IMG/VR virus record: IMGVR_UViG_3300006169_000166
Location: 4,590 to 68,589 of that record
From: a virus
Taxonomy: Duplodnaviria; Caudoviricetes
DNA length: 64,000 nt
Strand: one strand, 5' to 3'
In this document: piece after piece, positions 55,117-62,285 of the stretch
How positions within the stretch are numbered: position 1 is the first letter of the stretch
How the letters are laid out: each line of letters starts with the position of its first letter
Made by a program: the position numbers and the translations under genes
Notes under the pieces: model-generated
What the model saw: only the letters and a program-made list of their open reading frames with translations
What the model was told of the DNA's origin: nothing
Database searches by the model: none

Positions 55117-57309
55117 TTATCCGAGCCGTTCGGCGAGATCCTCGATGCTGAGCGTGCCCGACGCCGGTTCGTCGCCCATCGGCTCCGCCGCGCTGTCCCC
55201 GGGACGCACGATCATGTCGTTCCTGTCCCAGTCGGGGTTCGCCCACGGCGGCGGCCTGGTCCAGTCCATATGCTCGAGCCTGACCTGCTGCGTCGAGCAG
55301 ATGCCGACGCAATAAGCGAGAAGGTCGAAGGCTTCGTTCTTCCTGCGGCTCGGGTTCTCCCAGCCGCGGGTCGTCCGGACTTCGGTCGTCAGCTGCGAGT
55401 AGAGCCAGCCGGTGTCGATGACCTGGTTGTCCGGGGCATGCCAGATCGGGAAATGCACCTGCCCGCCCGGGTCGGTGCGGCCGAGCATGTTCGACACGCG
55501 GTCCTTGACCTTGTTCGAATTGACCAGCCACACCGGGACGTCGCCGCGTGCGATCGCGAACTTGCCCTTCTGCCCGCTGTCCGGGAAGGTGCGGTGCATC
55601 TCCGGCGCGGTCGCGCTCGGCGCGCCCTTCACCAGATGGAAGCGCAGGTGCGAACCGTCGCCGCGCTTCTTCAGCCGCCGCCAGAACTCGTAGGCGTTGG
55701 CCGTCACGCTGACCTTCGGCCCGTCCTCGTCGCGCGCCTGTTTCTTCGCGTTCGCCGACGCGGCTGCGCCGCCGGAGTCGCAGGCGACGATCTTGACCCG
55801 CATCTCCCGGCCCGACCCGTCGGCGAGCGGATAGGTGCGCAGCAGCGCCTCGTCGACCAGGCAGTCCCAGTCCTCGGGATAGGAGGCGGGGTCGATCAAT
55901 TTGCGCTCGCCGTCCTCGTCCATGCGGCGCGACTTGCGGATCTTCCACATGTCGACGTGCCAGATGTCGGCGGCAGTCGGGACGATGCCGTCCTGCAACT
56001 GCTCCGGAGTGACGCCCGGACCGATGCCGTAGGTATGGCAGACGAACGACGGCCGCCCGCCCGCCTGGACGTCGATGGTGGTGACGAGGAAACCGACCCC
56101 CGGTGGAACTTCGCCCTTGTCGGAGTAAGGCTGCGCGCGCTCGCGCAATTCTTCGGGCAGCCGTCCGGCTTCCGATGCCTTCGGCGTGTAGGGCAGGCCC
56201 TGGTCGACGTTGACCGTCACCTTCAGCGCTTCCTCGCTGCCGGTGCGCTCATATTCGTCCATCGCGTTCAGATATTTGAGCACCAGTTCGGGCCAGCTGA
56301 TGAAGGCGGCTGCCACGCCCTTCAGCCAGAAACTCGCAATATCCGAACGCCGGGCGATCCCGGACACCGAGCCGTCGGCCTCCCAGGCCTGCCCTTCCTT
56401 GATCCACCTGCCGCCCTGATTGAGCTCGTGCTTCATCTCGGGGTCAATCGGAAAGCCGCAGTGCGGGCATTCCATGACCACCTGGGCCGCCGCGTTCATC
56501 GGATCAGGAAGCTGAGGCCAGCGCAACAGCTTGAAATCGCCCTCGAACGGGTCGTTGCATTGCGGGCAGCGCCAATACCAGCGTCGCCGGTCGCCGCGGT
56601 TGTAGAGGGCGAGGATGCCGGTCGTCGGCGGCGCTTCGTGCGGACTCGTCGGCATCCACTTGGGATTAGTGACTTCGCGGCCCGGCGAACCCTCGCACGC
56701 AGTCATCCCGAAACGGCGATACGTCTGCGCACGCTTGCGGGTAAGGTCGAACGGGTCGCCTTCCTTGTCGACATTGTCGGCCATGCGGTCGCGGTCGAAC
56801 AGCCACAGCTTGCGGATCGTCTTGCCCGAAAGTTCGGTGATGGTCGGCCATTTGATGAGCAGACGCATGCCCGACAGGAAGCGCTTGTCGTGGACGTTGT
56901 CGTTCTGCCGCCCGGGAACCAGCCGGTTGCGAACGTCCTCCGAGTAGCGGAGCATCCGGGCGAGATCGCCTTGCGACCAGTCGCGCGCGGTGTTCTGCGT
57001 CATGTTGACGAACATCATGTCGGCGGGATCGCAGATCGTGGTGTAGGCCAGCCAGTTGAGGGCCATCACCGATTTGCCGGAGCGGGCTGGCCCCGCGAAG
57101 ATTTCTCCGGTGAAATCCAGGCTCTCCAGTTCGTTCATCGGCTCGATCAGATAGGGCGTCCGCTCGAGCGAGAACGGCCCGACATGCGTGCCGGGGTTGT
57201 TGACATAATGGTAGCGCTCGGCGGCCTGGCTGACCGTCAGCCGTTCGGGCGGGCGCACTGCCTCGGCCGATGCGACCATCATCTCCTCGATGGTGTGGAA
57301 CACGCGCAT
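55117..57309 (-). CDS. Terminase large subunit (gpA family)
   Basis: GPARSGKS, DRDR, CPQC/CPHC, TIDVQ, NEAFDL. Confidence 0.93.
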   Translation of the reverse strand: MRVFHTIEEMMVASAEAVRPPERLTVSQAAERYHYVNNPGTHVGPFSLERTPYLIEPMNELESLDFTGEIFAGPARSGKSVMALNWLAYTTICDPADMMFVNMTQNTARDWSQGDLARMLRYSEDVRNRLVPGRQNDNVHDKRFLSGMRLLIKWPTITELSGKTIRKLWLFDRDRMADNVDKEGDPFDLTRKRAQTYRRFGMTACEGSPGREVTNPKWMPTSPHEAPPTTGILALYNRGDRRRWYWRCPQCNDPFEGDFKLLRWPQLPDPMNAAAQVVMECPHCGFPIDPEMKHELNQGGRWIKEGQAWEADGSVSGIARRSDIASFWLKGVAAAFISWPELVLKYLNAMDEYERTGSEEALKVTVNVDQGLPYTPKASEAGRLPEELRERAQPYSDKGEVPPGVGFLVTTIDVQAGGRPSFVCHTYGIGPGVTPEQLQDGIVPTAADIWHVDMWKIRKSRRMDEDGERKLIDPASYPEDWDCLVDEALLRTYPLADGSGREMRVKIVACDSGGAAASANAKKQARDEDGPKVSVTANAYEFWRRLKKRGDGSHLRFHLVKGAPSATAPEMHRTFPDSGQKGKFAIARGDVPVWLVNSNKVKDRVSNMLGRTDPGGQVHFPIWHAPDNQVIDTGWLYSQLTTEVRTTRGWENPSRRKNEAFDLLAYCVGICSTQQVRLEHMDWTRPPPWANPDWDRNDMIVRPGDSAAEPMGDEPASGTLSIEDLAERLG

Positions 57310-58064
57310 CAGGCGGCCAGCAACCAGAGGACGGACAGTCTTGCTGCCGCCTGGTTGATAAAGCCGTCGATTCGGTCGAGGCTGTTCATATCCTCTATTC
57401 GTTCGCGCATGATCGCCGCCCGCATGCGCTTGCTTTTCGGTTGATAGGTGCCTCGCCAAGCGCTGTCGGAGATGATGTTCATAGCGATGTTCGTGCTGTC
57501 ACCGGAGGCGAGAGGGAGCTGCGTGTAGATGGCCGGGTTCAGCATGCGCAGGCCATGCACCTTGCAAATCGGTCGCCCGCGCTCATCGCAGATCGAACGA
57601 ATTGCCTCTTTGGCTCGAGGTAGGAATTTGCTCGGCGTGCTGACATCGTACTCCCCGCTGGAACCGATGCAGACGCGAGGATAGGCTTCAGCTAGGCGCC
57701 GAAAGCGCTCAAGGCTCTCGTTGATGTGCCATACCGGCGCACCGACGTGTCGGTCGAAAGGGAAATCGGTTACGAGCGCGTCATTCTCGGCTTCAGAGCC
57801 GTCGATGACATCTGGGATAACCGCGAAATCAAAGCCTGGATGCCGATGCCATTCCTGAACGAACGCATAGAAACCGGGCCAATCAACGCGGGTGCCAGCT
57901 TTCCAGAAACTGAATGCGCCGTTGTCCAAGAAAAAGGACTGACACAGGGCGGCGGCCAATCCGACCTGTTCTGGACGCGCGTAGGACACGCAGGCGTGTC
58001 CGCCCTTCCAAGCTGCGATTGCCGCCTCTTCCGGCCAAATAGGTCCGCCGTGATAGTGAATCAT
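57309..58064 (-). CDS. TGT/DpdA-like putative base-exchange (transglycosylase-fold) protein
   Basis: FLDNGAFS, PDVI, PVWH, GSS, HGLRM, SGDST mirror TGT/DpdA motif spacing; fold is inferred. Confidence 0.55.
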   Translation of the reverse strand: MIHYHGGPIWPEEAAIAAWKGGHACVSYARPEQVGLAAALCQSFFLDNGAFSFWKAGTRVDWPGFYAFVQEWHRHPGFDFAVIPDVIDGSEAENDALVTDFPFDRHVGAPVWHINESLERFRRLAEAYPRVCIGSSGEYDVSTPSKFLPRAKEAIRSICDERGRPICKVHGLRMLNPAIYTQLPLASGDSTNIAMNIISDSAWRGTYQPKSKRMRAAIMRERIEDMNSLDRIDGFINQAAARLSVLWLLAA

Positions 58065-58315
58065 TACGTCGCTTTCCGCGGCCTGCCGCGTGGACGCAGG
58101 AGGCCCTGCGCGCGCAACTCTTCTCGGCGACGCATCTTCCGCAAAGTCCCCCGGACGCCGTCCGGAGTGCCGCCGATTTGCCGCGCAATCTGCTTGAACG
58201 ACAACCCTTCCGCTCGAAGGCTTTCAGCCCTCTGACGGCGCTCGGCGAGAATGGCCGCGCCTTCCGCAGTCCACCATTGAAGCTGCTGAAACTCGGTTAG
58301 GTTGCGAGCAATCAC
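58064..58315 (-). CDS. HTH protein with AT-hook-like tail
   Basis: GLSFKQIARQIGGTPDGVR; RPRGRPRK. Confidence 0.7.
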   Translation of the reverse strand: MIARNLTEFQQLQWWTAEGAAILAERRQRAESLRAEGLSFKQIARQIGGTPDGVRGTLRKMRRREELRAQGLLRPRGRPRKAT

Positions 58316-58665
58316 TCCGACACCCAACTACCGAAAATTCGCTCTAGGGGACGGGCACAGTCGACCTGAATACATCCGGGCAGCTGGGTTCCGATGTGCG
58401 CGGCGAGATTTTCTGCAAGTTGTAGGTCGTCGGCCAGAAACGTGTGGTCAAGAGTCTCGCGCACAGTTTCCACTTGGCGCTGCAGCGCTCGAGCGTCATG
58501 GCCGAACCGATACCACGCTGTCACCTCATAGGAGTGACCGTGAGGCGTCCCTTCCGGACTGTTGTGTCCGACGCTCAGCACGAAGCCGACGCCCGTCAAC
58601 TTACGTCCGAACGAGCGGGGTGGCAGCCCCGCTCGCGAACGCTCGTGATCTATCCAATCAGTCAT
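58312..58665 (-). CDS. QueD/PTPS-like T-fold protein
   Basis: GH...HGHSYEV and LDHTFL; AENLA; the Cys normally preceding HGH is absent. Confidence 0.7.
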   Translation of the reverse strand: MTDWIDHERSRAGLPPRSFGRKLTGVGFVLSVGHNSPEGTPHGHSYEVTAWYRFGHDARALQRQVETVRETLDHTFLADDLQLAENLAAHIGTQLPGCIQVDCARPLERIFGSWVSE

Positions 58666-58912
58666 GCTGAGCCGGATAGTTCTGCGGATTGACCAAACAA
58701 TCACGCAGGTCGGCTGCCATCTGCGGGTTCTCCGCCTCAATGCTCGCCGCATAGGCTGAGATTGCCGATGCGGCGTGGCGGTCGCTGCCATCGTAAGCGA
58801 TGACTAGGTAGCGACGGGACGAATCGATCGCCTTCCCATCGGTACGGGTGACGCGAAACCTGTCCTCGAAACCCCCGCTTCCGGCGCGGCTTGCTGCTAC
58901 TTCTTCGGTCAT
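58658..58912 (-). CDS. Hypothetical protein
   Basis: YLVIAYD.SD.HA..AI.AYA...NPQMAADL. Confidence 0.7.
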   Translation of the reverse strand: MTEEVAASRAGSGGFEDRFRVTRTDGKAIDSSRRYLVIAYDGSDRHAASAISAYAASIEAENPQMAADLRDCLVNPQNYPAQHD

Positions 58913-58936: not shown

Positions 58937-59641
58937 TCACGAAGTCGCGCCCTCCCCGCCTTCATCATATTCGGCGGCGATGCTCCTGGTCGTCGACCGC
59001 TCGGGGGCGCTGACGAGCAGGGCGTGGAGGTCGTTCTGGAGGTCATTCTGCATCTGGACGAAGCGGGCATATTGCTCGTCGTCGAGCTTGCAGACCTCGC
59101 GCATCGTCTCGGCCCACAACTGCACCCGGTCCTTGATCAGCATACAGGCGTCGCCGAGCCGCGCGAGCACGTCCTCGGTGCGCCACGCCTGCCCTGCCTC
59201 GAGCATGAACTTGAGGCGGATGCGCTGGGCTTCCCAGAACATCTTGTTGATGTGGTTGGGCAGCTTCGCGGGGTCGAGCGACTTGATGTAGGCGTCGAGG
59301 TCGATCTTCGGCTCGACCAGGTAGCTGCACGCTTCCTTGAAGTCGTAGAGCTTGCGAGTCTGGACGCCCGAGCCGACGAAGCCGACCGGCTTCACCGTCA
59401 ACAGGCGCTTCTTGACCGTCGCCGGGTCCATGTCGAACACGAGCGCGAGGAAATTCTGCGTCACCGGCCGCTTGAGCTCGCCACCGTCGACGAAACTGCC
59501 CTTGCCGCCTGCCACCTGCTTCAGGATCGCGTTGATTTCGTCCTCGGACGTGTCGGTGCGGCGCGGCAGTCCGCCGGTGTCCGCCGCCGGTGCAAGCTGC
59601 GAGCCGTGACCGATGATGGTGTCGATGTCGTTCTGGTTCAT
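58937..59641 (-). CDS. Terminase small subunit (DUF1441-like)
   Basis: VFDMDPATVKKRL, K.FWEAQ..RLK....AG..W..EDV; position. Confidence 0.85.
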   Translation of the reverse strand: MNQNDIDTIIGHGSQLAPAADTGGLPRRTDTSEDEINAILKQVAGGKGSFVDGGELKRPVTQNFLALVFDMDPATVKKRLLTVKPVGFVGSGVQTRKLYDFKEACSYLVEPKIDLDAYIKSLDPAKLPNHINKMFWEAQRIRLKFMLEAGQAWRTEDVLARLGDACMLIKDRVQLWAETMREVCKLDDEQYARFVQMQNDLQNDLHALLVSAPERSTTRSIAAEYDEGGEGATS

Positions 59642-59645
59642 CGGG

Positions 59646-61878
59646 TCAGCCGATCAGCGCGCGAAACGGCTCGAGGTTGAGCCACCACTGGATGCGCGCG
59701 CCGACCCAGAGCATCACATGCGTCGCCATGCTGTTGCCGCACTGCTTGTAGCGCGGGCCGTCTGCCGCCATCAGCCACCAGCCGCCGTTCGGGTCCGGCT
59801 CCCACATGTCGTCGGGGCGCAATGCCGTGACTTTCTTGGCAGGGTAGAACCGCACAGGGATGCGGGTCCAGTTGTCGGGGAATCCCTGAAGGCGCTCGCA
59901 CTCGGGGGGCATGAGCCTGCGAACGGCCATGTTGGGCGCGGTGAACCAGCCGTCGACGGTTCCCCCGCCGTTGGATCTCGAGGAAATAATCGCAGGTGCA
60001 TGCCCTCCTGCCGCGAGCGGGTGGCACGGGTCACCGGGTTGCGGGTTGCTGTAATTGTCGGGGGACGGCAGTTGCGTCGTGTCGAAGGGAGTGACTTCGT
60101 GGCATACCGCTTGCGGCACCGTCCGCGCCTCTAACGTGTAAGCGGTGCCGTCACCGCGTACACCCATTCCGTCCGGCCCGGCATTCGGATTCTCGCACAC
60201 CGCGCGCTCCTGAATCGCGTAGGCGACGGCGCTCGGCCCGCTGACATCCAGTGTCGGCGCGAGATGCTCGTCGACCCCGATGCCGTTAGCGCCGGTCTGC
60301 GCGGTGCGGACGCTGTAGGCGACTGCCGGCATCACCCCGCCGTTGGCGTGACTGTCGCTATGCCCGCCCGAACGCAGGGTCGGCGACAGGTCGTCGGACG
60401 CGTCCTGCCCGTAGTCCTTCGCAGTGGAGGCGACGCATGGCGCTCCGCCGGAAGCACGGTCGCTGTTGCCCGTGAGCGTTCCGGAAATGTGGTTATCGAC
60501 GGCGACGTTCGACCCGCGCCCCTGGAATCCGATCAAATGACTGAACGGATCGGTTCCGGTCGTCAGGGCATCGACGCGATCTCCGGTCTCCCACGCCCCG
60601 TTGTTGCCGGAGGTTCGGTAGGCGACCGGCACAATCGGTTGCCCGCGCCCAGTGCCGTCCTCACTGGCGTCGAAACCTTCGGCTTTCAGGCAATGCGTCA
60701 CGGGTTCCGTGACGCATTGAGGTTCCACGAACTCTAATTTCTCTTCCTCGCCGCAGCGCGGACACTCATAGGGCGCAAGGCCGCCGATGTCGCGGCCGTG
60801 GAGGTCGAGGAACGGGCCTTCGCCGCATTCGAGGCAGCGGAGAAGCGGTGCGGCTTCCACTTCGTGCGACACGATCAGACTGTCCGCCGTGTCGACGTCA
60901 GTTCCGGGCGGGCGGTCACCGCCGGTCGCATTGCCGCCGGCGCGCAACGTGGGACTGACCTGGACGGGAGCTTCATCGAACCCGCCTCCGAGCATAGGGA
61001 TTAACGTCTCCGTCTCGGCATCCCGACGGCCCATCGCCCCCGCGTTGAGACACATCGAAATTTCGGTATGCCCCCCCCGGAACCAGTGCAGAAGTCACCC
61101 GATTAGTGAGTCGAACTCCTGTTGCAGCGGGCACGACGTGCCCGCTGCAAGCACCGTCGGTTCCGAGGAAGCCACCGCCGTCAGTGCGCGCATCAAGAGT
61201 TCCGGCAACGTCTTGCCCCTTTTCTCGGCTCGGCGGAGAATCCCGGCGCACGCCGTCGAACTCAAGTAGAATCTCTCCGGGATCGAACCCGTCACGAGCA
61301 CTTGCGACAAGGGTGATACGCTTGCGGCGTTGGGAAAGGCCGAAATATTGGGCATCAAGGACCCGCCACGCGATTGCCCTTTGGGGTCCAAGCACAACAC
61401 CAGCGTCCGGCCATCTTTTCCCTGACGGCTCGAGCGGCTCATCTTCTCCGGCAAGCGCTGCAAGGAAATTGCCGAACGGATTGTCCTTGTGGCTGAGGAT
61501 TCCCGGTACGTTTTCCCAGACGATGACACATTCGGGCTTTCCGACCGCTCGGCGAGCGCTGTCGATAGCATCGGCAATCTCCACGAAACTGAGGGTGAGC
61601 TGTCCGCGCGGGTCGGCCAATCCCTGGCGACGGCCCGCGACTGAGAAGGATTGGCAGGGCGTACCGCCAACAAGCACGTCAGGCGCTTCGACCACGCCTG
61701 CTTCAATGAGCGGCGCGATCTGCGTCATATCACCAAGGTTGGGGACGTTCGGCAAACGATAGGCGAGCACCGCTGACGCGGCCGCATCCACCTCTGAAAC
61801 CCAGGCGGTTTCCCAGCCTAACGGATGCCATGCGACAGACGCGCTTTCGATGCCGCTGCAAACACTGCCAAAGCGCAT
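59646..61878 (-). pseudogene. dcm: C5-cytosine methyltransferase split into two frames at a G8 tract
   Basis: Motifs I/IV/VI/VIII (SVCSGI, GGTPCQ, WENV, QRRKR) in 60973-61878; IX/X (RRLMPPECERLQGFP, YKQCGNS) in 59646-61055; 2233 nt, and G8 to G7 at 61071-61078 gives one ORF. Confidence 0.82.
61095..61706 (-). CDS. Alternative-frame ORF nested in dcm (M.EcoHK31I beta-like)
   Basis: LSQVLVTGSIPERFYLSSTACAGILRRAEKRGKTLP; start uncertain. Confidence 0.55.
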   Translation of the reverse strand: MKQAWSKRLTCLLAVRPANPSQSRAVARDWPTRADSSPSVSWRLPMLSTALAERSESPNVSSSGKTYRESSATRTIRSAISLQRLPEKMSRSSRQGKDGRTLVLCLDPKGQSRGGSLMPNISAFPNAASVSPLSQVLVTGSIPERFYLSSTACAGILRRAEKRGKTLPELLMRALTAVASSEPTVLAAGTSCPLQQEFDSLIG

Positions 61879-62285
61879 CAGCGGCACTCCATGCCGAGAT
61901 ATGCCGCTGCCGCAGCGCGCCAAGGTAGATCGTCCCAACCTCCGAGGCGCAGATTGCACCGCCTACACAGGAGACCTCGCACCTTACCGGTGTTGTGGCA
62001 GTGATCGACGTGCAACTGCTCCGGTTCAACACCACAAATCTTGCAGCATCCCATCTGCTCTTGCCCAAGGCGCTGGTACTCAGCCTCGGTAAGCCCATAG
62101 CGCCCCATCAGGTGCCAACGGCGCTTCTGCTCCGGAGAATAAGATCGAGGTTTCACGTTACGCGTGATTCGAACACGCCTATTGGCGCAAGACGCGCAGT
62201 AGGAATGGCGGCCTTGTCGTCCGGTTGGCTGACTATGGAAGTCGGCAAGCGGCTTAGTCTGCTGGCACGTCGAGCAGCGCTTCAT
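61878..62285 (-). CDS. Recombination endonuclease VII-family HNH nuclease
   Basis: CSTC, CASC, CKICG, LHVDHCHNTGKVRGLLCRRCN. Confidence 0.9.
   Translation of the reverse strand: MKRCSTCQQTKPLADFHSQPTGRQGRHSYCASCANRRVRITRNVKPRSYSPEQKRRWHLMGRYGLTEAEYQRLGQEQMGCCKICGVEPEQLHVDHCHNTGKVRGLLCRRCNLRLGGWDDLPWRAAAAAYLGMECR

What the first reader, a model, noticed from the sequence alone, without database searches (positions are those of the whole stretch)
57309..58912. Minimal QueD-like + HTH + TGT/DpdA-like cassette between terS and terL
Seen: four translationally coupled or tightly spaced genes. One is a short T-fold protein with the His triad (GH...HGHSY) and LDH motif but no Cys before HGH. Another is a 251-aa protein with DNGAF/PD/H/DST motifs in TGT/DpdA order. 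No folE, queE or queC is in the window. Established: phage 7-deazaguanine DNA modification uses FolE-QueD-QueE(-QueC) plus DpdA to evade restriction. Inference: a stripped-down base-exchange system that taps host preQ0/CDG pools, or uses a different pterin-derived base, placed with the packaging genes so it would act on DNA about to be packaged.
Basis: partly seen in the sequence, partly recalled or inferred. Interest (0 to 1): 0.75.

Follow-up and report, generated by a model that had tools for sequence, protein, structure and literature searches.

The report
Phage DpdA with mini-QueD helper cassette
A prophage carries, inside its DNA-packaging operon, a known type of enzyme that swaps guanine in DNA for a 7-deazaguanine base. 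It travels with a stripped-down QueD-like enzyme and a small conserved helper protein, a recurrent but undescribed variant of a known anti-restriction system.

Summary
On the minus strand, terS, an 84-aa protein (p84), a 117-aa QueD-like T-fold protein, an 83-aa HTH protein, a 251-aa DpdA-like protein and terL form one tightly coupled operon. The complete provirus has no FolE, QueE, QueC, Pfam TGT or YhhQ.

- **DpdA-like protein.** It belongs to the "DpdA-only" phage group catalogued by Hutinet et al. 2019. It is about 59% identical to the BTP1, SPN3UB and SfI proteins. Its profile matches the validated phage 9g DpdA (hhalign 93%).
- **QueD-like protein.** It belongs to a small, separate "mini-QueD" family. 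The fold and the zinc His triad are QueD/PTPS. The catalytic Cys is replaced by Glu, and two canonical loops are missing.
- **Linkage.** In 19 of 21 other viral copies a DpdA-like gene is adjacent, in either order. In the other two viral copies and two prophages, an unproven 202-aa look-alike fills that slot.
- **p84.** p84 also travels with DpdA. In three phages a YhhQ-type precursor transporter takes the mini-QueD slot, which suggests a precursor-supply role.
- **Chromosomal copy.** One sphingomonad genome has mini-QueD overlapping queE.

Best reading (about 0.6): host-assisted 7-deazaguanine modification of phage DNA. No chemistry has been tested. This scan has met DpdA plus Cys-less QueD pairs before on other DNA. 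Verdict: a new variant of a known kind, of moderate interest.

The parts
58937..59641 (-). Terminase small subunit (terS), first gene of the coupled operon.
   Evidence: phrog_141 terminase small subunit, E 6.3e-33. A homologue (44% identity) lies just downstream of the cassette in L074/L075.
58658..58912 (-). p84, an 84-aa conserved small protein of unknown biochemical function that travels with DpdA-like genes.
   Evidence: An RBS (GGAG) lies upstream of the ATG. It matches the N-terminal part of phrog_9572, E 2.8e-12. Mean column identity is 64% across 10 phage homologues, with 23 invariant residues. It is adjacent to a DpdA-like or 202-aa slot-mate in 7 of 8 IMG/VR loci and in phages DMCA, RHph_X2_30 and Pam5.
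58312..58665 (-). Mini-QueD: a short PTPS/QueD-family T-fold protein with a zinc His triad, an Asp-His dyad and Glu in place of the catalytic Cys.
   Evidence: PF01242: 28.1 bits, above the 22.4 cut-off. AF2 pLDDT is 87. Foldseek top hits are all QueD/PTPS (2oba, 4ntk, 3qn0; TM 0.62-0.70, E about 4e-6). Family invariants are H34, H42, G43, H44, E85, V101, R105 and E108; D73 and H74 are conserved in at least 90%. There are 343 clusters at 50% identity with E<=1e-3 among 1.84 billion representatives.
58064..58315 (-). Small helix-turn-helix protein (83 aa from the GTG; 87 aa if the TTG at 58327 is used). An accessory DNA-binding protein.
   Evidence: It gives weak matches to HTH_38 (E 9e-4) and phrog_7061/phrog_645. 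Homologues lie just upstream of the DpdA-like gene in L004/L069, L005 and L070.
57309..58064 (-). DpdA-family DNA guanine transglycosylase of the short, zinc-subdomain-free 'DpdA-only' type.
   Evidence: phrog_887, E 2.6e-74. It is 59% identical to the BTP1, SPN3UB and SfI genes, which Hutinet 2019 lists as DpdA. hhalign of the family profile against 9g DpdA gives probability 93%, E 3e-7, with DxGAFS, H and DS(S/T) aligned. AF2 pLDDT is 87. The best structural matches are Cap10 (Z 15.9), arcTGT (15.8), TGT (14.3) and DpdA 7ui4 (14.3).
55117..57309 (-). Terminase large subunit (lambda GpA type), coupled to the DpdA-like gene through a TGATG overlap.
   Evidence: PF05876, E 7.7e-62, and PF20454, E 4.7e-47. 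The overlap is read from the sequence.

Best explanation
The cassette is a host-assisted system for 7-deazaguanine modification of phage DNA.

- **DpdA-like enzyme.** After replication it exchanges some guanines in phage DNA for a 7-deazaguanine base, most likely preQ0.
- **Host contribution.** The phage encodes no FolE, QueE or QueC, so the base is made through the host's own enzymes.
- **Mini-QueD.** It adds capacity at the first committed step (dihydroneopterin triphosphate to CPH4), or supplies that step where the host lacks it. In related phages a YhhQ-type precursor importer takes this slot and would serve the same end.
- **p84 and the HTH protein.** They are accessory partners of the transglycosylase. 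Their roles are unknown; possibilities are DNA targeting, substrate handover or regulation.
- **Timing.** The genes are translationally coupled to terS and terL, so they are made late, when concatemeric DNA is present. The expected benefit is protection of the virion DNA from restriction.

Shown here: gene identities, folds, conserved residues, linkage and absence of the other pathway genes. Inferred: the base inserted, the mini-QueD reaction, the roles of p84 and HTH, and the timing.
For: 1. The DpdA-like protein is about 59% identical to the DpdA-only genes of BTP1, SPN3UB and SfI, which Hutinet 2019 catalogues as DpdA. Its family profile is homologous to the experimentally validated 9g DpdA, with the acidic and His motifs aligned. 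Its fold is TGT-like.
2. The mini-QueD has a QueD/PTPS fold, the His triad, the Asp-His dyad and a conserved Glu.
3. Linkage is strong. Of 21 other viral mini-QueD copies (20 IMG/VR loci and phage DMCA), 19 have a DpdA-like gene within a few hundred bases, in both gene orders. Three of those 19 (L006, L013, L014) look frameshifted. The other two viral copies, and two Novosphingobium prophages, have a 202-aa look-alike in the same slot.
4. p84 sits beside the DpdA-like gene. In RHph_X2_30, Pam5 and L076 the third gene is a Vut_1/YhhQ-family transporter instead of mini-QueD. Hutinet 2019 describes YhhQ as the preQ0 transporter. Either partner would raise the supply of precursor.
5. In the Sphingomicrobium MAG G001, a mini-QueD 58% identical to this one overlaps the end of queE in a housekeeping neighbourhood. 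It is that genome's only PTPS-family match. QueC and TGT are present and no DpdA-like gene is.
6. The complete provirus lacks FolE, QueE, QueC and YhhQ.
7. In L004 a Lar-like restriction-alleviation gene follows the cassette, which fits an anti-restriction setting.
Against: - No chemistry was tested here.
- The two DpdA-only phages that have been analysed gave no modification (Orion) or only 0.02% dADG (Salmonella phage 7-11). This branch may be weakly active or do something else.
- The mini-QueD lacks the catalytic Cys. The acidic residue that replaces it is not invariant, and some members have a two-residue loop there.
- The mini-QueD also lacks the conserved hairpin of canonical QueD, falls far below the NCBIfam QueD equivalog cut-off (22 against 89 bits), and its family profile does not align with phage 9g QueD.
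- Glu at the Cys position is the published hallmark of PTPS-III, which makes a folate precursor and not CPH4.
- The host of this provirus was not identified, so its QueE and QueC are assumed.
Confidence: 0.6

Rival explanations
1. The mini-QueD is not a CPH4 synthase. It makes or tailors a different small molecule, such as a PTPS-III-like pterin product or a modified 7-deazaguanine. The DpdA-like enzyme then inserts this base, giving a DNA base not yet described.
For: - Glu replaces the catalytic Cys, as in PTPS-III.
- Both active-site loops of canonical QueD are trimmed.
- The family is small and well separated from canonical QueD: only 343 clusters at E<=1e-3.
- Its profile shows no hhalign relation to 9g QueD.
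- It is almost always welded to a DpdA-like gene rather than to queE or queC.
Against: - A 58%-identical copy overlaps queE in a chromosome that has no other PTPS-family member.
- A YhhQ-family precursor transporter substitutes for it in the same DpdA+p84 module.
- The acidic residue is not invariant in the family.
- All DpdA enzymes tested so far insert 7-deazaguanines.
Confidence: 0.12
2. The mini-QueD has lost catalysis. It acts as a binding or handover subunit, or as a structural partner, for the DpdA-like enzyme. For example, it could hold a 7-deazaguanine or pterin-like ligand at its zinc/Glu pocket.
For: - It lacks the catalytic Cys and the substrate hairpin.
- It is tightly coupled in translation and adjacent to DpdA-like genes in both orders.
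- The bacterial DpdA also needs a partner, DpdB (author's recollection, not checked here).
Against: - The zinc His triad, the Asp-His dyad and the Glu are kept under strong conservation across 31 diverse members. That pattern is typical of a working active site.
- The chromosomal queE-linked copies sit in genomes without any DpdA-like gene.
Confidence: 0.13
3. The cassette does not modify phage DNA. The short DpdA-like protein acts on another substrate (tRNA or host DNA) or is vestigial. The module instead alters the host's queuosine/tRNA status or has some unrelated role.
For: - Tested DpdA-only phages had no modification or only a trace.
- Hutinet 2019 notes that this subset may have diverged in function, and that phage Que genes could boost Q in tRNA.
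- The protein lacks the zinc subdomain of TGT and bacterial DpdA; there is no invariant Cys.
Against: - The family is very large (more than 6,500 clusters at 90% identity), with invariant catalytic-type residues. It is therefore under selection.
- 9g DpdA did not complement a tgt deletion and does act on DNA.
- Orion's host makes no preQ0, which explains that negative result.
Confidence: 0.12

Closest known systems
'DpdA-only' phages: third group of Hutinet et al. 2019 (PMC6884629), e.g. Salmonella BTP1 and SPN3UB, Shigella SfI, HK106, Vibrio Athena1
   Same: The short (about 230-250 aa) DpdA is the same type, at about 59% identity, and these phages are listed as DpdA in that paper's Supplementary Data 1. 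They also lack FolE, QueE and QueC, so dependence on host preQ0 was already proposed.
   Different: This cassette adds a mini-QueD, p84 and an HTH protein, and it sits between terS and terL rather than in the early (ea/nin) region. The 2019 table has no DpdA+QueD-only class.
Full phage 7-deazaguanine systems (9g, CAjan, Rosebush: DpdA1 + FolE + QueD + QueE + QueC or Gat-QueC)
   Same: The logic is the same: a DNA transglycosylase plus precursor supply. The family profile of the DpdA-like protein is homologous to 9g DpdA (hhalign 93%).
   Different: Only one of the four precursor enzymes is present. That one is a trimmed, Cys-less form whose family profile shows no detectable relation to 9g QueD. 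These full systems modify 25-32% of guanines; the level here is unknown.
Canonical QueD / PTPS (E. coli QueD 4NTK; P. aeruginosa PTPS 2OBA)
   Same: It shares the T-fold, the zinc His triad, the Asp-His dyad and a conserved Glu. These are the top structural matches.
   Different: Sequence identity is about 20%. It is about 97 aa against about 120. Glu replaces the Cys four residues before HGH, and the hairpin after strand 2 is deleted. It scores below the NCBIfam QueD equivalog cut-off.
DpdA + YhhQ phage modules (Sinorhizobium phiLM21 in Hutinet 2019; Rhizobium RHph_X2_30 and Pseudanabaena Pam5 found here)
   Same: In the two found here, a DpdA-like gene (41-46% identity) and a p84 homologue (49-51%) are clustered with one precursor-supply gene. 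For phiLM21 only adjacent DpdA and YhhQ entries are on record.
   Different: The supply gene there is a Vut_1/YhhQ transporter. Here it is a mini-QueD.

Membership tests
Phage DpdA (7-deazaguanine DNA transglycosylase, TGT superfamily) | Sequence homology to an experimentally validated DpdA. | tested here: met
   hhalign of family alignment A2 against phage 9g DpdA gives probability 93%, E 3.3e-7, over 156 columns. The protein is 59% identical to BTP1, SPN3UB and SfI proteins, which Hutinet 2019 lists as DpdA.
Phage DpdA (7-deazaguanine DNA transglycosylase, TGT superfamily) | TGT-like TIM-barrel fold. | tested here: met
   The AF2 model has pLDDT 87. In the VIA-align search of 48,161 chains, five of the top nine are TGT-superfamily: Cap10 Z 15.9, arcTGT 15.8, TGT 14.3, DpdA 7ui4 14.3 and QTRT2 13.4. 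Unrelated TIM barrels reach Z 12-14.6, so the fold alone does not discriminate. Pfam TGT gives no hit.
Phage DpdA (7-deazaguanine DNA transglycosylase, TGT superfamily) | Conserved acidic catalytic residues and the conserved His. | tested here: met
   D47 (in DNGAF), D85 (in PD), H170 and D189 (in DST) are invariant or conserved in at least 90% of 28 members. D47, H170 and D189 align with the LDSGAFS, VHG and CDSS segments of 9g DpdA. Equivalence to the 'His196' of the papers is inferred from the alignment.
Phage DpdA (7-deazaguanine DNA transglycosylase, TGT superfamily) | Inserts a 7-deazaguanine base into DNA. | not testable with these tools
   This needs LC-MS/MS of DNA. Tested DpdA-only phages gave no modification (Orion) or a trace (7-11).
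QueD / PTPS (COG0720, PF01242) | T-fold, and a Pfam PTPS match above the gathering score. | tested here: met
   PF01242 scores 28.1 bits against a 22.4 cut-off. The top Foldseek hits are all QueD/PTPS, with TM 0.62-0.70.
QueD / PTPS (COG0720, PF01242) | Zinc-binding His triad, the Asp-His dyad and a conserved Glu. | tested here: met
   H34, H42, H44, E85 and E108 are invariant. D73 and H74 are conserved in at least 90% of 31 members.
QueD / PTPS (COG0720, PF01242) | Catalytic Cys four residues before HGH (the QueD/PTPS-I signature). | tested here: not met
   This position is Glu38 here. Across the family it is Glu or Asp in most members, another residue in some, and deleted in others. No Cys is invariant in the wider family. 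Glu at this position is the published PTPS-III feature.
QueD / PTPS (COG0720, PF01242) | Meets the NCBIfam QueD equivalog model (TIGR03367). | tested here: not met
   It scores 22.4 bits against a cut-off of 89.25.
QueD / PTPS (COG0720, PF01242) | Genomic association with other preQ0 pathway genes. | tested here: inconclusive
   There is none in this provirus. A 58%-identical chromosomal homologue overlaps queE in Sphingomicrobium MAG G001, where it is the only PTPS-family match.
QueD / PTPS (COG0720, PF01242) | CPH4 synthase activity. | not testable with these tools
   This needs complementation of an E. coli queD deletion, or an in vitro assay with dihydroneopterin triphosphate.

The most novel reading that the evidence does not exclude
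The mini-QueD, which lacks the catalytic Cys and both canonical active-site loops, does not make CPH4. It produces or tailors a different base, either pterin-derived or a new 7-deazaguanine derivative. The short DpdA-like enzyme, helped by p84, then writes that base into phage DNA, giving a DNA modification not yet described.
Probability: 0.12. Interest if true: 0.85.

Novelty: new variant of a known kind. Interest (0 to 1): 0.45.

Why it matters
The 'DpdA-only' phages were the largest group in the 2019 survey (76 phages), and their modification status was left open.

This work shows that a subset of them is not really 'only DpdA'. They carry a conserved small partner (p84) plus one interchangeable precursor-supply gene, either a mini-QueD or a YhhQ-type transporter.

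That provides:
- a concrete three-gene unit to test, available in the cultured Caulobacter phage DMCA;
- a minimal T-fold enzyme (about 97 aa) that may show how little of QueD is needed for catalysis;
- a possible reason why earlier tests of DpdA alone gave only trace modification.

Practically, such cassettes affect restriction sensitivity and the sequencing behaviour of phage DNA.

Tried and rejected
The contexts of the 38 database homologues of mini-QueD could not be read, so the search for related loci was used instead.
- **Sequence searches against PDB chains** were uninformative for both proteins.
- **Pfam TGT** gives no hit for any of the 28 DpdA-like members, even at E<=1.
- **The 202-aa slot-mate** (phrog_15826) could not be shown to be a DpdA relative. 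Its equivalence rests only on shared motif order and position.
- **The mini-QueD family profile against 9g QueD** showed no relation (probability 8.7%).
- **Host identification** failed. A terL search of 201 Sphingomonadaceae genomes found a single match, at 61% identity.
- **The idea that mini-QueD is simply the normal sphingomonad QueD** was rejected. The family profile found it in only 1 of 61 family genomes and 1 of 26 genus genomes.
- **The promoter and terminator scan** showed nothing above shuffled background.
- **Literature searches** found no paper on this pairing or on phage DMCA.


Full report
**1. What is there**

The window is most of an IMG/VR provirus record (68.6 kb, CheckV 100% complete, about 65% GC). 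Six genes on the minus strand between 59641 and 55117 form one tightly packed unit:
- terS, 59641-58937 (phrog_141, E 6e-33).
- p84, 58912-58658. A 24-nt spacer with GGAG precedes it.
- A QueD-like gene, 58665-58312. Its ATG overlaps the p84 stop by 8 nt.
- An HTH gene, 58315-58064 (GTGA overlap).
- A DpdA-like gene, 58064-57309 (TAATG overlap).
- terL, 57309-55117 (TGATG overlap; Pfam GpA ATPase and nuclease domains).

No promoter-like or terminator-like signal above background breaks the unit. The 159-aa frame that the ORF list gives for the T-fold gene overlaps p84, and homologues are about 97 aa. The real product is therefore 117 aa or less.

**2. The 251-aa protein is a 'DpdA-only' type DpdA**

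- Pfam and NCBIfam give no match. PHROG 887 ('queuine tRNA-ribosyltransferase') matches at E 2.6e-74.
- tblastn finds it in 107 phage records. Identity is about 59% to Lederbergvirus BTP1, Salmonella SPN3UB, Shigella SfI and relatives.
- Those phages are listed as DpdA-only in Supplementary Data 1 of Hutinet et al. 2019. That is the paper's 'third group', whose modification status was left open.
- A 28-member family alignment has invariant N48, G49, P84, D85, W112, G134, H170 and R173, and nearly invariant D47 and D189.
- The family profile aligns with the experimentally validated phage 9g DpdA at 93% probability (E 3e-7). The DxGAFS, VHG and DS(S/T) segments are in register.
- The AF2 model (pLDDT 87) is a TIM barrel. 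Its best matches among 48,161 chains are the TGT-like Cap10 (Z 15.9), archaeosine TGT (15.8), bacterial TGT (14.3), the DNA preQ0 insertase DpdA 7ui4 (14.3, with the highest identity at 16%) and QTRT2 (13.4). Unrelated barrels reach Z 12-14.6, so the fold supports the assignment but does not prove it alone.
- The family is very large, with more than 6,500 clusters at 90% identity. It has no invariant Cys, so it lacks the zinc subdomain of TGT.

**3. The T-fold protein is a separate 'mini-QueD' family**

- PF01242 matches above its gathering score (28.1 against 22.4 bits). The NCBIfam QueD equivalog is far from met (22 against 89 bits).
- The top matches of the AF2 model (pLDDT 87) are QueD/PTPS structures: 2oba, 3qn0 and 4ntk, with TM 0.62-0.70 at about 20% identity.
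- In 31 diverse members the invariant residues are H34, H42, G43, H44, E85, V101, R105 and E108. D73 and H74 are conserved in at least 90%. The zinc triad, the Asp-His dyad and a Glu are therefore kept.
- The catalytic Cys of QueD, four residues before HGH, is Glu38 here. Across the family this position is Glu or Asp in most members, another residue in some, and deleted in a subset whose loop is only two residues long. No Cys is invariant in the wider family.
- Alignment to a canonical Novosphingobium QueD shows two deletions, including the hairpin after strand 2.
- Glu replacing or accompanying the Cys is the published mark of PTPS-III, which makes a folate precursor. The product of mini-QueD therefore cannot be read from the sequence.
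- A profile search of 1.84 billion representatives finds only 343 clusters at E<=1e-3 and 173 at E<=1e-10, mostly 95-105 aa. The family is small and does not merge with canonical QueD.

**4. Linkage**

Mini-QueD loci were fetched from IMG/VR (20 loci) and from GTDB genomes (4 loci).
- tblastn with the window's proteins finds a DpdA-like gene beside mini-QueD in 18 of the 20 viral loci, in both gene orders. In three of these (L006, L013, L014) the match is split over two frames.
- The other two viral loci, and two Novosphingobium prophages, have a 202-aa protein (phrog_15826) in the same slot. It shows the same order of DNGGF, PDIV, IGGS, VH..R and D.T..AR motifs. Its relation to DpdA could not be proven.
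- The cultured Caulobacter phage DMCA has mini-QueD (52% identity), DpdA-like (40%) and p84 (52%) in a row.

p84 is strikingly conserved. Mean column identity is 64%, with 23 invariant residues, across phages of alphaproteobacteria and a cyanobacterium.
- It lies next to a DpdA-like gene or its 202-aa slot-mate in 7 of 8 IMG/VR loci.
- Among cultured phages it does so in DMCA, Rhizobium phage RHph_X2_30 and Pseudanabaena phage Pam5, but not in RHph_X3_2.
- In RHph_X2_30, Pam5 and L076, the third gene of the module is a Vut_1/YhhQ-family transporter rather than a mini-QueD. Hutinet 2019 describes YhhQ as the preQ0 transporter.
- This swap of importer for mini-QueD, inside an otherwise conserved DpdA+p84 module, is the best indirect evidence that mini-QueD serves precursor supply.

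The HTH gene recurs upstream of the DpdA-like gene in the nearest relatives (L004/L069, L005, L070).

**5. A chromosomal copy**

In Sphingomicrobium MAG G001, a mini-QueD 58% identical to this one overlaps the end of queE. It lies between nadB and ordinary housekeeping genes.
- It is that genome's only PTPS-family match. QueC and TGT are present, and no DpdA-like gene is.
- A Sphingomonas MAG (G002) shows the same picture at a contig end.
- This supports a real role in preQ0 synthesis.

It is not the usual sphingomonad enzyme. The family profile finds it in only 1 of 61 Sphingomonadaceae genomes and 1 of 26 genomes of that genus.

**6. Position in the genome**

The cassette is next to terminase genes in four separate contexts:
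- between terS and terL in this window;
- just before terL in L009;
- just before terL in L021 (L022 and L023 carry near-identical cassettes, but their terL was not checked);
- just before a terS homologue in L074/L075.

Elsewhere it sits among helicase, exonuclease and recombination genes (L019, L010, L007), or in the early region of lambdoid phages (AH07, BTP1). Late co-expression with packaging is plausible here, but it is not a general property of the module.

**7. Reading**

The best-supported mechanism (about 0.6) is host-assisted 7-deazaguanine modification of phage DNA.
- The short DpdA exchanges guanine for preQ0 or a close relative.
- Host FolE, QueE and QueC supply the pathway.
- Mini-QueD adds the first committed step.
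- p84 and the HTH protein are accessory partners.

Points against this reading:
- The chemistry is untested.
- Analysed DpdA-only phages show no modification or only a trace.
- Mini-QueD has a non-canonical active site.

The rivals are a new base made by mini-QueD (0.12), a non-catalytic partner role for mini-QueD (0.13), and a function other than modifying phage DNA (0.12).

**8. Novelty**

DpdA-only phages and their presumed reliance on host preQ0 were published in 2019. Four features were not found in the papers searched:
- the mini-QueD family;
- its near-obligate pairing with DpdA;
- the p84 partner;
- the QueD/YhhQ swap.

This scan has already met DpdA plus Cys-less QueD pairs, and helper-bearing DpdA cassettes between terS and terL, on other DNA. 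The finding is therefore a recurrent, undescribed variant of a known system, not a new kind.

Noticed in passing
Genomes G005-G089 (Sphingomonadaceae sample); loci L045-L054: There may be a QueD pathway hole. Only 6 of 60 other Sphingomonadaceae genomes, and 0 of 25 other genomes of G001's genus, have any PF01242 (QueD/PTPS) match. Ten of the 12 other genus genomes searched have QueE, and in the five loci inspected queC and queE are adjacent. Either an unrecognised CPH4 synthase exists in this family or the search misses it.
   Followed up: partly
L017:3720-4394, L020:4197-4808, L026:3144-3752, L027:4185-4793: A 202-aa viral family (phrog_15826, unknown function) occupies the DpdA slot upstream of p84 and mini-QueD. 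It has DNGGF, PDIV, IGGS, VH..R and D.T..AR motifs in DpdA order. The hhalign probability of a relation to the DpdA-like family is only 9%.
   Followed up: partly
window 58658-58912; PHROG 9572: p84 matches only the first 72 positions of a 171-position PHROG annotated as sulfatase-modifying factor enzyme. The atlas lists a viral cluster in which a similar domain accompanies FGE-sulfatase in 34% of members. p84 may therefore be a portable N-terminal domain.
   Followed up: no
L004:5467-6138: A Lar-like restriction-alleviation protein (phrog_599, E 1e-12) lies just downstream of the HTH, DpdA-like, p84 and mini-QueD cassette in the closest IMG/VR relative, after one 64-codon ORF.
   Followed up: no
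L006, L013, L014: In these three viral loci the DpdA-like gene gives two tblastn segments in different frames. This points to frameshifts, either real decay or assembly errors in metagenomic contigs.
   Followed up: no
L028 (G003:C41:87410-88461): A Novosphingobium MAG has a full-length canonical QueD directly followed by a second QueC copy. This QueD also has Ser, not Cys, four residues before HGH.
   Followed up: no
window 59646-61959: The C-5 cytosine methyltransferase upstream of terS is split into two overlapping ORFs. The N-terminal part is 60973-61959 and the C-terminal part lies within 59646-61055. An endonuclease VII gene, an AlpA-like gene and the integrase lie beyond it.
   Followed up: no
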